DNA of 64,000 nucleotides from positions 51,150,001 through 51,214,000 of the forward strand of contig OX597817.1 in assembly GCA_951406725.2 (NCBI GenBank), written 5' to 3'. The position numbers were made by a program, and so were the translations under genes. Every line of letters starts with the position of its first letter. Positions within the stretch are counted from its first letter, which is position 1. Positions 4,683 through 47,024 of this stretch are shown here, piece by piece. This DNA is from Octopus vulgaris (lineage: Eukaryota). The notes beneath the pieces were generated by a model that searched no databases, had not been told where the DNA came from, and was given only the letters and a program-made list of their open reading frames with translations.

Positions 4683-6302
4683 TATTGGGTTGGCAACTAA
4701 GTTACTCTTTACTCTTTTACTCTTTTACTTGTTTCAGTCATTTGACTGCGGCCATGCTGAAGCACCACCTTTAGTCGAGTAAATCGACCCCGGGACTTAT
4801 TCTTTGTAAGCCCAGTACTTATTCTATCGGTCTCTTTTTGCCGAACCGCTAAGTTACGGGGACGTAAACACACCAGCATCGGTTGTCAAGCAATGCTAGG
4901 GGGACAAACACACACACACACACACACATATATACATATATATACATATATACGACAGGCTTCTTTCAGTTTCTGTCTACCAAATCCACTCACAAGGCAT
5001 TGGTCGGCCCGGGGCTATAGCAGAAGACACTTGCCCAAGATGCCACGCAATGGGACTGAACCCAGAACCATGTGGTTGGTTAACAAGCTATTTACCACAC
5101 AGCAATGCAGTTCCCGTATTTTTTTTTTAATTTTGGAATTTATTGCGTTTTTAAATTCTGGAAACCTTTTTCTTTTCGAGAGTTCTATTTTGGAATCAAT
5201 TTTGTTTTTGTTTTGTTTTTTTCTAGTTAATTTTAGTTAAGTTTTGTTTAGTTTCAGCTCATTGAAATGGAATGTCAAGTTAAGAGAAACGAGCATTTTC
5301 GACACCTCCTTTTTTGCTTTTAATCAAGGTTCTTAGGCCGCAAAAGCTGCTCGCGACATTTGTGCTGTGTATGGAGAGGGTGCCATAGGTGAAAGAACCG
5401 CTCGTGATTGGTATGCCAAGTTCAAAAATGGAAAGATGCACCTCGTTCTGGCCCGCCAGTTGAGTTCGATAAAGACCGATTAAACAAACTTTTGCAAACG
5501 ACAGGGGAACTGGCAGAGAAAATAAAATGGGTTCTGCATGCTTTAAGTGACAACAACAAAAGTCATCGATCCACAATCTCCTCTCGTTTGCTTGCTCGTC
5601 ACCCCTCAACTCATGGATATAAGCAACGATTTCTTTACTGAATCGTTACTGGCGACGTAAAATGGTGCCTGTACATCATTATGAAGCAACGCAAGGAATG
5701 GTTTAGTCCCGGTAAACAAGTGACACGTGCGTGAAACAAGATCTTCATCTGCGTAAAACGATGTTGTGCGTATGGTGGGACTGGGGAGGGATTACCCATT
5801 ACGAATTGCTTGAACGAAACCAAACGAACAACGCCGAACTCTACGTTCAACAGATGGAACGACTCAACACGGCTATTCAAGAGAAAAGACCTAATCGGCA
5901 GCATGGAGGTCTTCTGCTGCACAACAACGCCCGCCCTCATATCGCCAATATGACCAAGGAAGCCATTCAAACGCATGGCTGTGAAATGCTGCCACACCTG
6001 CCGTGCTCTCTTGATTTGGCACTAACGGATTTCCACCTCTTTCGATCTCTTTCAAATGCTATGCGCGGAGTTTCGTTCAATACTGATGCAGAATTGAGAG
6101 CTTGGTTGGATCAATTTTCAATTTTTCGGGTCGAAATTGGGTGATTTCTACCGACGAGGTATTGAATATTTTGTTGAACGTTGGGAAGAAGTTGTACACA
6201 AGGGTGAATACATTATTTTTTAATTAGTTGTTATTTTTTATTAAACCTTTAAAAAATTTTTATTTAAAATACAACGGCAGGAAGTTATTTGCAAACCCAA
6301 TA
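4683..6302 (+). mobile_element. Mariner transposon, decayed, left TIR interrupted by a SINE
   Basis: TIRs TATTGGGTTGGCAACTAAGTT / AAGTTATTTGCAAACCCAATA; transposase motifs IVTGDVKW, MLCVWWD, LLHNNARPH, LPHLPCSLDLALTDFHLFRSL; frameshifts. Confidence 0.93.
4704..5103 (-). mobile_element. tRNA-derived SINE family A (CORE-like, octopus OR2-type), near full length
   Basis: B-box GGTTCAGTCCC, CORE-like TTGGGCAAGTG, internal TA/TG microsatellite, 3' stem-loop and (AAAAGAGT)n tail. The family name is recalled, not searched. Confidence 0.85.
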
Positions 6303-41842: not shown

Positions 41843-41934
41843 ACTTTTTCTATTCCTGAGCGCTATACTAATACATATGTTTGTTTGTACACCACCTGCC
41901 TTCGTCTTTTGTTTATGTTCGTAAACTTTCCCTT
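41843..41934 (+). mobile_element. Partial Penelope pseudo-LTR copy upstream of the ORF
   Basis: TTCCTGAGCGCTATACTAATACA...CCACCTGCCTTCGTCTTTTGTTTAT matches 44944-45025 and 2259-2349. Confidence 0.85.
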
Positions 41935-41960
41935 TGTATGTATATATATATATATATATC

Positions 41961-44065
41961 ACTCCATCCTGTAAGGAATTCCAGACGCGAGTTGATGTCC
42001 ACAGCTTTGTGCGCCGTGTCCGGTTGGGTGCGCATTACCACGACTCGCCACCCACACCCAACGAAGAGGACGACTGCTTCACTGGCCTGGGCCGCCGACC
42101 ATCCCCGTGGACGCCTGCTCCTGGCCAGATCCTAGCAGTGGATCTTTTCGCGGGCGCTTGTCAGCGTGCATTGGAGCGGTTCAACTTCTCCAGGCGCCAA
42201 CGCCGCCTCAACATCTCCCCGGCTGAGCTCTTGGCTCTTCGTTCCCTCCAACGGCGCGCTGACATTATCATCAAACCGGCTGACAAGGGTGGAGCTGTAG
42301 TGGTGTGGCGCGCGGACCTCTATAGGGCCGAGGCTTTCCGCCAACTCAATGACACCTCCTTCTATTCCCCTCTGCCCTCTAACCCCACACGTAGCTACCA
42401 ACAGACGGTATCCTCTACTGTCCAAGACCTCATCTCGTCCTCCCGTCTCCCCCGCACCGCATCCAACCTAATTGTGCGAACCCCACGTACCCCCACCATT
42501 TACTTCCTCCCCAAAATCCACAAACCCAACAACCCTGGCCGCCCCATCGTCTCCGCCTGTAACTGCCCCACGGAGCTCATCTCTAAATACCTCGACCGTG
42601 TCCTTGCCCCCCTAGTGGCATCTCTTCCCTCCCACATCCACGATACCAACCATGCTCTCCGGCTTTTCAACTCTTTCTCCTTTCCTCCCGGCTCCTCCAA
42701 AATCCTTTTTACTATGGACATCCAAAGCCTCTATACTGTTATCCCTCACCACGAAGGACTGCAGGCCCTTCGACACTTTCTTGACCTCCGCTCTAACCCT
42801 GTACCTGACACCTCCACACTCATTCGTCTGGCCGAACTTGTCCTTACTCTGAACTGCTTCTCGTTCGCGGGCGAGTTCTACCATCAGGTCTCGGGAGTGG
42901 CCATGGGAACGCGAATGGGCCCCAACTATGCGAACCTGTTCGTTGGCTATGTTGAGGCCCAAATATTCTCTAATTTCACTGGTCCCACTCCTGAACTATA
43001 TGGTCGTTATATTGACGACATTATCGGTGCCACCTCACTCTCCCGCGAACATCTAGATTCCTTCCTCTCTTTCGTCCAATCTTTCCATCCAGCCCTCCAC
43101 TTCACTTCCACTATCTCCAACACCTCTGTCTCCTTCCTCGACATTTCGGTTAGCATTCTTCACTCCACTCTTACCACCTCCATTCACTACAAACACACAG
43201 ACTCACACTCATACCTCAACTTCTCTTCCTCCCACCCAGAACACACCAAGCTTTCCATCCCCTATTCCCAATTCCTCCGTCTACGTAGGCTCTGTAGTGA
43301 CGACCATGACTTTGAGACTCAGTCTCAACGTATGGCTCACCACTTCACCCTACGTGGATACCCCCTCACCACTATCCACACCGCCCTTGCCAGAGCACGG
43401 TCCGTGGACCGTGTATCTGCTCTCTCTCCCCGAACCCGCCCTGTAGTATCCCGCCTCCCTTTTCCCCTCACTTACCACCCCACGACCCTACGTCTCCAAC
43501 GCACCATTCTTCGAGCTTTCCGTCATCTCCAGTCCGACCCGTCCACTTCACACCTCTTCCCTAACCGACCCCTCCCCTCTTTCAAACGAGCCCACAACCT
43601 TCGAGACCTTTTGGTCCATAGCTCCTTCCCTGACCCTACCTCCCAACCCGGCTCGTTCCCCTGCTCCCGCCCACGTTGCCGCACTTGCCCTTACCTCTCC
43701 AACACCACCCGCCTCACTAGCACCCACCATCGACCCTATCCCATCATCCACTCCTTCACCTGCACCTCCAGCAATATTATCTATTGCATCTCTTGCTCTC
43801 TCTGCAATTCCTTGTATATCGGACAAACGGGACGCCGCTTGGCTGACCGGTTCGCGGAACACCTTCGTGACATCCACCTTGCGAACGACACACCGGTCTC
43901 ACGCCATTTCCGCTCCACCGGTCACTCCTTGCAACACCTATCTGTGTTCGGTTTGTCCTTACACAGAGGCCATCCGGATTCCCGTTTGCGCCGTGAACAG
44001 GAATTAATCTTCTCTCTTCGCTCTTATACGCCATTTGGTCTCAACTCTCCCCCCTCCTCATCTAA
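41961..44065 (+). CDS. Penelope-like reverse transcriptase / GIY-YIG endonuclease polyprotein (N-terminus missing)
   Basis: Motifs IKPADKGG, YFLPKIHKPNNPGRPIVS, TMDIQSLYT, GVAMGTRMGPNYANLF, RYIDDI, FLDI; Cys linker CSRPRCRTC; GIY-YIG region IIYCISCSLCNSLYIGQTGRRLADRFAEH...RREQELI...GLN. No internal stops. The listed start (MYVYIYI) is microsatellite and the low-complexity tail after GLN is probably UTR read-through, so the end coordinate is approximate. Confidence 0.92.
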
Positions 44066-44379
44066 CCCCCCTCTCCCCCTCCTCACCTATCCTTTCTCCC
44101 CCGACCCCTACTTCTACAGTCCTTCATCCTTTCACCCCTACTCCCCTTCCCTTCTTCCCTCTTTCTCCCTCCCTCTTCCCCTTCCCTCTGCTCCCTCACT
44201 CCCCCTCTCCCTCTTTCCTCCTTCATCCCCCTCATCCCCTTCCTTCTCCCCCATCCTCTCCTCTTCCCCCTTCTCCTCCCCCTCTTCTTCCCCTCGCCTT
44301 CTCTCCCCCTCTTCTCCCCTCCCCCTCTTCTCCTCACTACACCACATGACTTTACACATCACATCACATATGATGTGCC

Positions 44380-44720
44380 ATACTAATACACACACCAACT
44401 AATACATACTAATACGTACTAATACATACCAGTACATACTAATACTTACACCAACACTATACATACACACGTCCAGACCCCGCATACGCACTTATACTCT
44501 CTCACACACACACACACACACCTATACATACCAATACGTACTAATACATACTAATACATACTAATACATACACCAACCCCATACATACGCACGTCCAGAC
44601 CAATCTTACGCACTAATACTCTCTCATACACACACACACACACACACACACACCCTTATACATACTAATACATACACCAACCCTATACATACACACATCC
44701 AGACCCCTCCCACGCACTTT
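44380..44720 (+). repeat. Three ~110-120-bp tandem units built on an 11-bp TACTAATACAT subunit in the Penelope 3' UTR
   Basis: TCCAGACC...ACGCACT recurs near 44470, 44592 and 44697. Confidence 0.8.
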
Positions 44721-44889
44721 TAGCTGGTCCCTCAACCCTTTTATCAACCCTATTATCTCCCCTTATTTCGCTCTCGCGTCTCATGTTTGATCTTTGACCT
44801 CTGGCCGAAATCAGATCGCCATGTTGATTCGTTAGCTACTGCACGCATTTTTTTCTCTCCTTCTTTCTGTGTTTTTCTCTCTCTGTGTA

Positions 44890-44927
44890 TCTTTCTGTTG
44901 AAGAGCGTAGGCTCGAAACGTTAAAGA
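44890..44927 (+). ncRNA. Minimal type I hammerhead ribozyme-like motif in the Penelope 3' pLTR (variant core)
   Basis: TCTTT-CTGTTGA-A-GAGC(GTAG)GCTC-GAAAC-GTT-AAAGA: stem I TCTTT/AAAGA, stem II GAGC/GCTC, palindromic ACGT stem III. Confidence 0.7.
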
Positions 44928-45031
44928 CTTGTTTTATTTATATTTCCTGAGCGCCATACTAATACAATTGTTCGTTTGTTTTCCACCTGCCTTCGTCTTT
45001 TGTTTATTTTCATAAAGCTTCCCGTTATATA

Positions 45032-46429: not shown

Positions 46430-46485
<56 letters not shown>

Positions 46486-46548
46486 TATATACATACATTA
46501 TATAAATGAAAGAATGGAGTTGAACGACGATTTAACAAGATTCCTTTA

Positions 46549-46632
46549 TTCTCGACATATGTTTCGAAGGCTGCATATTCCTAATTTCGAAGGAATAAGG
46601 GGTGCATTATGCCGCCTTCTCATCAGGAAAAA
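46549..46632 (-). ncRNA. Type I hammerhead ribozyme (inverted copy)
   Basis: Reverse complement of 46694-46777. Confidence 0.8.
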
Positions 46633-46693
46633 CAAGGAACATCAAGATGAACAAAAGCTCTTATATGACTGCCCACATGGAGCCCATAGCGAT

Positions 46694-46777
46694 TTTTTCC
46701 TGATGAGAAGGCGGCATAATGCACCCCTTATTCCTTCGAAATTAGGAATATGCAGCCTTCGAAACATATGTCGAGAA
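46694..46777 (+). ncRNA. Type I hammerhead ribozyme
   Basis: TTTTC-CTGATGA-GAAGGC...GCCTTC-GAAAC-ATAT-GTC-GAGAA; palindromic stem III ACATATGT, GUC triplet. Confidence 0.85.
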
Positions 46778-46955
46778 TAAAGGAAATTTGTTAAATCGTC
46801 GTTCAACTCCATTCTTTCATTTATTTGTATTTAAAAAAACACACAAATTTCCACCATTGGCATGTAGCTTCAACCGTGTTTTTCTGACGTGAATTTGCTA
46901 CCCAGGTATCGGTTAACCGAATTATCCATACTAATATAATTCATTCAACTACTTA

Positions 46956-47024
<69 letters not shown>

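What the first reader, a model, noticed from the sequence alone, without database searches (positions are those of the whole stretch)
46502..46824. Twin hammerheads on opposite strands in a 131-bp inverted duplication
Seen: two arms of 131 bp with 2 mismatches and a 61-bp spacer. Each arm holds a canonical CUGAUGA...GAAAC-AUAU-GUC ribozyme, so a transcript from either strand contains an HHR and its full antisense. Known: Penelope insertions often carry an inverted partial pLTR at the 5' side. Inference: this is a young non-autonomous PLE insertion. In a transcript, ribozyme folding competes with a long dsRNA hairpin that would silence cleavage and could be an ADAR or Dicer substrate.
Basis: partly seen in the sequence, partly recalled or inferred. 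Interest (0 to 1): 0.75.

Follow-up and report, generated by a model that had tools for sequence, protein, structure and literature searches.

The report
Head-to-head truncated Penelope retrotransposon insertion
The two mirror-image hammerhead motifs are real but ordinary: they are the end piece of a Penelope-like jumping gene pasted twice, head to head, into a TA repeat, and because such pairs nearly always join one short and one long end, they likely record the enzyme copying one RNA from both sides of the cut.

Summary
In detail: arms match 129/131 and each carries a type I hammerhead core. The insertion is 46502-~46959, in (TA)n. It is two 5'-truncated pieces of one Penelope-like element (PLE) joined head to head; the 61-bp 'spacer' is just more of the inverted piece. 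The parent is an RT + C-terminal GIY-YIG family (3456-bp unit, 2070 exact ribozyme-motif hits) that follows the Hydra clade motif by motif but lacks its CxCX5C linker. Junctions differ between copies, so this is a truncated copy of an autonomous family, not a MITE or a non-autonomous family. Opposite-strand twin hammerheads in PLEs are published; 13 of 80 sampled loci have them. The useful detail: 48 of 49 typed pairs join one short and one long (~155-nt tail) end, none two long ends, and the arms share rare variants. This fits priming from both target nicks on one RNA (inferred, ~60%). If transcribed, the hairpin would beat the ribozyme by ~120 kcal/mol; expression, editing and cleavage are untested. 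The scan noted the same architecture and pairing rule before, in other genomes.

The parts
46430..46501 (.). (TA)n target repeat, left flank
   Evidence: sequence; family copies sit in (TA)n at both ends
46502..46693 (-). Inverted 5'-truncated piece with the SHORT 3' end (+52 relative to C17); reaches -149 in parent coordinates; 10-nt deletion after 46640
   Evidence: loose ends at 46640
46541..46639 (-). Type I hammerhead, minus strand: stem I 5 bp + 2x2 loop + 6 bp, long stem II, 2-bp stem III with palindromic ACAUAUGU; C17 = 46554
46633..46693 (-). The 61-bp 'spacer': unpaired inner part of the inverted piece (parent 3' UTR upstream of the ribozyme)
46693..46694 (.). Head-to-head junction of the two truncated pieces; blunt, no microhomology seen
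   Evidence: sequence against family copies
46694..46959 (+). Forward 5'-truncated piece with the LONG 3' end (-78 to about +203..+208)
46695..46777 (+). Type I hammerhead, plus strand; stem I cut to 5 bp by the junction; C17 = 46772
46825..46959 (+). Tail between the short and the long end (about 155 nt in the family; 21-nt deletion near 46854 here); in full-length copies it is the 5' leader of the next tandem unit, the ORF start following ~60 nt after the long end
46961..47020 (.). (TA)n target repeat, right flank
   Evidence: sequence

Best explanation
This is one insertion of a Hydra-like, endonuclease-bearing Penelope-like retroelement: two 5'-truncated copies of its ribozyme-containing 3' end joined head to head in a (TA)n repeat, likely made when the element's enzyme nicked both strands of the target and primed reverse transcription from each nick on the same RNA, once at the short and once at the long start site. 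Shown: the anatomy, the parent ORF, the variable junctions, the one-short-one-long rule, the shared variants between arms. Inferred: (1) the two ends are the two internal RT start sites, by analogy with Poseidon_Ac; (2) both nicks are used; (3) one template serves both; (4) the two abortive cDNAs are joined by end joining, often over a few shared bases. Twin hammerheads appear whenever both cDNAs run about 130 nt past the short end, so they are a by-product. In a read-through transcript of either strand the antisense arm comes first and would pair the ribozyme away, so this copy is predicted not to cleave. Odds: identity as a truncated inverted PLE insertion about 0.95; the dual-priming-on-one-RNA mechanism about 0.6.
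For: [quoted passage not shown] Tandem unit 3456 bp. Junction differs copy by copy, outer ends fixed. Genome-order sample, 82 loci: 48 short+long, 1 short+short (ambiguous, L136), 0 long+long, 29 solo, 4 other. Sample taken by the long end, 30 loci: 22 short partners, 0 long, 8 none (10 of the 22 were already). Among 100 consecutive long-end hits no head-to-head pair; among 100 ribozyme hits 18 pairs, all head-to-head, all 18 with the same allele at the degenerate base. Arm-to-arm difference 2.3% against 7.1% between loci; at shared polymorphisms both arms carry the minor allele 210 times, one arm 33 times; rare variants are shared by both arms in several loci. Inner ends within 16 nt of each other in 11 of 32 overlapping pairs, permutation mean 3.6, p=0.0002. 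31 of 47 junctions overlap by 1 or more bases in the BLAST coordinates. In vitro, Poseidon_Ac nicks and extends both strands and starts at two internal sites that bound the tail (PMC11167929). Folding: whole insertion -251/-243 kcal/mol free against -132/-123 with the ribozyme forced.
Against: No direct mechanistic test; the in vitro work is on another clade with a 30-40-nt tail. Concordance of arms is also expected from fold-back synthesis, from gene conversion between arms, and partly from subfamilies being active at different times; the partner arm was strictly the nearest sequence in only 12 of 63 pairs (12 ties). 33 single-arm cases at shared polymorphisms, including a 5-nt duplication in one arm of L012, could mean two templates in some events. 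The excess of symmetric junctions is what fold-back predicts too, and three of them sit on the stem II hairpin (L110, L122, L132). Junction coordinates come from BLAST ends and are rough. Pfam does not recognise the parent RT or EN. The Hydra CxCX5C linker is absent. Samples are from the first part of one chromosome and need an exact motif match.
Confidence: 0.75

Rival explanations
1. Fold-back (self-priming): one cDNA is primed at the long site, folds back at its 3' end and is copied back as far as the short site; non-overlapping pairs come from later deletion. Close to the self-priming model of Arkhipova et al. 2013.
For: Explains one-long-one-short and shared variants. Excess of symmetric junctions, palindromic junctions (L057, L004, L010) and a recurrent -28/-43 junction on the stem II hairpin in three subfamilies. 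Model in PMC3846280 (passages).
Against: In 16 of 48 pairs (one a duplicate, one a partial-tandem case) and 9 of 22 the long piece stops inside the tail and holds none of the short piece, which then cannot be its copy. Solo short-end copies are common (19 of 82), so the short site primes on its own.
Confidence: 0.2
2. Two independent RNAs, one per subunit of an asymmetric dimer, one read from each start site; arms are later homogenised by gene conversion.
For: Poseidon_Ac ORF is predicted to be a dimer (PMC11167929). 33 discordant cases at shared polymorphisms.
Against: 210 concordant cases; 18 of 18 pairs share the allele at one polymorphic base; correlated inner ends.
Confidence: 0.13
3. A functional unit: the hairpin is kept as an ADAR or Dicer substrate or as an on/off switch for the ribozyme at this locus.
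For: A near-perfect 131-bp stem would form on either strand. PLEs give antisense small RNAs in a rotifer (PMC3846280 passages). A PLE ORF on the + strand ends 1.5 kb upstream and could read through (untested).
Against: 13 of 80 sampled loci have twin intact cores with spacings from 59 to 3596 nt, as expected of a by-product; no host exon was recognised in the window (ORF list only); the copy has two deletions and substitutions of its own.
Confidence: 0.05
4. A MITE or a self-propagating non-autonomous palindrome family, or an assembly fold-back.
For: Fixed outer ends, TA flanks, 2485 first-look candidates.
Against: Inner junction and arm length vary from copy to copy; ends are asymmetric; they continue into an RT ORF; the ribozyme covaries; arms differ from each other by private changes; four public runs hold family contigs with many different joints.
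Confidence: 0.02

Closest known systems
Hydra clade of C-terminal EN+ PLEs (Craig et al. 2021, PMC8557442), e.g. Hydra-1_Obim, Penelope-13_HM
   Same: RT-EN order, DKT, RW, no CCHH, CxxC and CxH around E and N, canonical HHR in the 3' end, (TA)n target; Penelope-13_HM is listed with a 5'-truncated inverted copy and an HHR on each strand.
   Different: No CxCX5C linker (an Asn-rich stretch instead, 21% Asn over residues 305-590 of P0002); RWL for RWK; unit 3456 bp against mostly <3 kb; tail about 155 nt against 30-40; HHR sequence and long stem II unlike Hydra-1_Obim's.
PLE hammerheads (Cervera and de la Pena 2014, PMC4209133)
   Same: Type I HHR in the pLTR, long helix II, tiny palindromic helix III; the paper reports dual HHRs 100-700 bp apart on opposite strands in Schistosoma.
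   Different: Helix I here extends past an internal loop; activity not tested here.
Poseidon_Ac two-site internal RT initiation (Frangieh et al. 2024, PMC11167929)
   Same: Two fixed 3' ends bounding a tail downstream of the HHR; AT-rich target; insertions copy through an uncleaved HHR.
   Different: There the HHR overlaps the start codon and the tail is short and inside the ORF; here HHR, tail and both ends lie upstream of the ORF start. In the parts read (1-2 of 4) the paper does not count end pairing in inverted insertions.
Inverted pLTR with one-sided tail in Adineta vaga Penelopes (Arkhipova et al. 2013, PMC3846280)
   Same: Head-to-head inverted pieces, tail on one end, palindromic junctions, Asn-rich inserts in the ORF.
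   Different: They propose self-priming on an antisense template; the non-overlapping pairs here do not fit that without an extra step.
L1 twin priming (recalled, no call)
   Same: Both target strands prime cDNA on one RNA, giving an inversion.
   Different: L1 gives an inversion without duplication and uses a poly(A) end plus a variable internal site; here both sites are fixed and the copied regions often overlap.

Membership tests
EN+ Penelope-like elements | Single ORF with RT and GIY-YIG endonuclease | tested here: met
   L124: 173-aa N-terminal piece and an open 704-aa RT-EN piece in different frames; BLASTP to a PLE RT E=1e-4; no Pfam hit
EN+ Penelope-like elements | Partial tandems forming pLTRs | tested here: met
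   L117 and L124 carry an upstream partial unit; period 3456 bp
EN+ Penelope-like elements | Inverted 5'-truncated copy at the 5' side, tail on one end | tested here: met
   48 of 49 typed pairs short+long; tail is longer than the published 30-40 bp
EN+ Penelope-like elements | Hammerhead in the pLTR | tested here: met
Hydra clade | DKG motif changed to DKT | tested here: met
   QSDKTRN in L063, L117, L124
Hydra clade | N-terminal RWK motif | tested here: inconclusive
   RIRWLAF against RMRWKAF in Hydra-1_Obim
Hydra clade | No CCHH motif; CxxC and CxH flanking E and N in the EN | tested here: met
   CGICNSE...N...RCLH/RCMH
Hydra clade | CxCX5C linker before the EN | tested here: not met
   No Cys between residues 178 and 589 of P0002; absent in every copy whose upstream frame was readable and in the sister family L190; present in the 6 Hydra rows seen in Fig. 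S7. Hence filed as Hydra-like, not as a strict member.
Hydra clade | Insertion into (TA)n | tested here: met
Hydra clade | Placement in the Hydra clade on an RT tree | not tested
   Only compared by eye with the supplement's alignment
Type I hammerhead ribozyme | Core CUGANGA, GAAA, NUH with three stems | tested here: met
   Core invariant except position 7 in 8 of 8 representatives; stems covary
Type I hammerhead ribozyme | Self-cleavage | not testable with these tools
   No bench data; truncation points do not pile up at the cleavage site
MITE | Fixed internal structure, symmetric TIR ends, no link to an RT | tested here: not met
Non-LTR retrozyme | Head-to-tail tandem of short HHR monomers | tested here: not met
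   All 18 close pairs are head-to-head; the unit is 3.5 kb and codes for RT

The most novel reading that the evidence does not exclude
Inverted PLE insertions are made by two reverse transcriptases primed from the two target nicks at two fixed internal start sites of one RNA; this family, with its 155-nt tail and some 1,700 loci, reads that mechanism out almost without exception (48 of 49). It also targets (TA)n without the cysteine linker that has been proposed to do the targeting.
Probability: 0.5. Interest if true: 0.55.

Novelty: new member of a known kind. Interest (0 to 1): 0.3.

Why it matters
The locus itself is ordinary. The family is a dense record of how PLE tandem/inverted insertions and tails form, which Craig et al. 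2021 name as an open task. The one-short-one-long rule, the non-overlapping pairs and the shared variants give sharp predictions for the existing in vitro system. Loss of the CxCX5C linker with (TA)n targeting kept speaks against that linker being needed for microsatellite targeting. By extrapolation (13 of 80 loci, about 1,700 loci) some 270 twin-ribozyme hairpins exist in this genome, so any dsRNA effect would be a family matter, not a property of this copy.

Tried and rejected
Rfam, gathering and E-value modes: no hammerhead family hit, only miRNA-like chance hairpins. The repeat finder on the whole window was swamped by microsatellites. No second copy of the element in the window. Pfam and PDB did not recognise the parent RT/EN; the protein atlas gave no answer. 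A classification by nearest TA run was fooled by TA inside the tail and dropped in favour. In four DNA-like contig sets no listed piece spanned this locus's own junction and 46644-46691 had no cover in two of them: no evidence either way on presence in other individuals. Cleavage run-off: only L165 and perhaps L126 end near +1; no pile-up. A shared signal before both ends (lead from e1-8673755): TTCAACT precedes both ends in this family but not the long end of the sister family; inconclusive. Rows dropped before counts: L072, L080, L085, L092 (second views of one locus); also L113, L148 (same junction and flanks as L112, L147); L099 (false partner). Literature searches that found no count of end pairing or dual-priming model for PLEs; octopus/hammerhead and editing searches. 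Subscription papers are not covered.

Full report
1. Observation. The arms 46502-46632 and 46694-46824 match at 129 of 131 bases with a 61-bp middle. Each has CUGAUGA, a long stem II, GAAAC-AUAU-GUC and a stem I; C17 is at 46772 (+) and 46554 (-). Rfam does not detect the motif, but it is real: across 8 representatives of subfamilies and two sister families the core is invariant but for position 7, 87.9% of cells pair, 6 pairs change on both sides, and slid controls give 39-48% (the structure was drawn from the window copy, which favours it over slid versions). The minus copy has the longer stem I; the junction cuts the plus copy to 5 bp.

2. What it is. A search of the own genome with 46502-46959 gave 2485 first-look candidates, 40 scored. 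In the 30 best loci the outer ends are fixed and lie in (TA)n, but the inner junction differs in each. The 'spacer' is the antisense of the sequence that precedes the ribozyme in other copies. So the insertion is an inverted piece (46502-46693) joined bluntly to a forward piece (46694-~46959). [quoted passage not shown] The order is ribozyme, short end, tail, long end, about 60 nt, ORF start. The protein follows the published Hydra alignment motif by motif, by eye, and aligns to a Pfam-positive PLE RT at E=1e-4; Pfam itself gives no hit. The CxCX5C linker of Hydra is missing here and in a sister family, so I file it as an EN+ PLE, Hydra-like.

3. The family record. An exact 26-nt ribozyme pattern has 2070 hits, control 0. 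The first 100 hits in genome order are 82 loci. Two 3' ends recur, at about +48..+57 and +199..+213 from C17. Automated typing: 48 short+long, 1 short+short (L136, a TA run inside what looks like a long arm), 0 long+long, 29 solo, 4 other; L117, L119 and L134 are also short+long on inspection. With free choice of ends, 48 of 49 mixed has a chance near 1e-13 (my arithmetic). Sampling by the long end (1669 hits) gave no head-to-head pair among 100 consecutive hits and 22 short, 0 long, 8 no partner in 30 loci, 12 of the pairs new. In a sister family 5 of 12 loci picked by the long arm have a partner, all short. Arms of one insertion differ by 2.3%, arms of different ones by 7.1%; minor alleles are in both arms 210 times and in one arm 33 times (63 pairs, which include loci chosen by likeness to the window copy). 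Inner ends are correlated (11 of 32 within 16 nt, p=0.0002). In 16 of 48 and 9 of 22 pairs the long piece stops inside the tail, so the arms do not overlap. Twin intact cores are in 13 of 80 loci.

4. How it likely works. Poseidon_Ac nicks and extends both target strands and starts RT at two internal sites that bound the tail, on uncleaved RNA (PMC11167929, parts 1-2 of 4 read). Carried over to this family (inference): each nick in the symmetric (TA)n target primes one cDNA, one at each site, on one RNA; both abort and are joined. This explains the pairing rule, the shared variants, the correlated ends, the non-overlapping pairs and the solo copies of both types. Fold-back (PMC3846280, passages) explains the first three but not the last two without extra steps; it may account for some junctions, such as the recurrent one on stem II. 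Two templates explain the discordant minority. Every arm that passes C17 was copied through an intact cleavage site, and truncations do not pile up there, which fits an uncleaved or religated template.

5. The transcript. On either strand the antisense arm precedes the ribozyme; in prefix folding of the plus strand every nascent ribozyme base pairs to it (13/13 up to 92/92), and forcing the ribozyme costs about 120 kcal/mol. The isolated motif is not the lowest-energy fold either (2 to 7 kcal/mol above), as expected of a 2-bp palindromic stem III that works as a dimer (PMC4209133, parts 1-2 of 4); head-to-head copies cannot give that dimer within one transcript. Whether the locus is transcribed, edited or diced was not determined.

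6. Known or new. Dual HHRs 100-700 bp apart on opposite strands are reported for Schistosoma PLEs. Craig et al. [quoted passage not shown] The bioRxiv retrozyme paper (part 1 of 5) and PMC5625713 (listing only) add nothing specific. I found no printed count of end pairing or dual-priming model, but earlier notes of this scan report both in other genomes; my reading was noted before that look-up (notes). L1 twin priming is recalled, not looked up.

7. Verdict. Real, explained, ordinary as a locus: a truncated inverted insertion of a new Hydra-like PLE family. Modest interest for the pairing rule, the long tail and the missing linker. Interest 0.3.

Noticed in passing
window 41958-45028 (+): A second PLE 1.5 kb upstream: 825-aa open frame with RVT_1 (E=9.7e-08), cysteine linker and C-terminal GIY-YIG (Neptune-like by motifs), 5' end in a TA run, hammerhead-like motif near 44890-44928 with an irregular 5' core; a look-alike of its 3' end lies at about 41850-41935, just before it.
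   Followed up: partly
L020:2960-3240; L181-L192: Sister family (EN about 55-60% identical, 3385 first-look candidates) with CUGAAGA core, compensatory stem I/II changes, the same two end positions and short+long pairs.
   Followed up: partly
P0002 residues 305-590 (L124): Asn-rich stretches between RT thumb and EN keep the frame open and stand where Hydra has CxCX5C; like the N-rich inserts of Adineta Penelopes.
   Followed up: partly
L110, L122, L132: The same -28/-43 junction with 7-nt overlap formed in three subfamilies, on the apical hairpin of ribozyme stem II.
   Followed up: partly
L124-type subfamily (L091, L098, L107, L108, L124): Stem II base reads GAAAUCUGCAU/AUGCAGCCUUC, with an internal loop after 3 bp, yet the subfamily spread.
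   Followed up: no
L147/L148 (C1:157.84 and 158.12 Mb); L112/L113 (C1:76.8 and 77.0 Mb): Same junction and flanks: local duplications or assembly haplotype duplicates.
   Followed up: no
L138:2718-2945; L090:171-416: Fragments of other, more distant Hydra-type endonucleases beside family copies.
   Followed up: no
window 5716-6144 (+): Mariner-like transposase fragment, recognised from motifs by recall.
   Followed up: no
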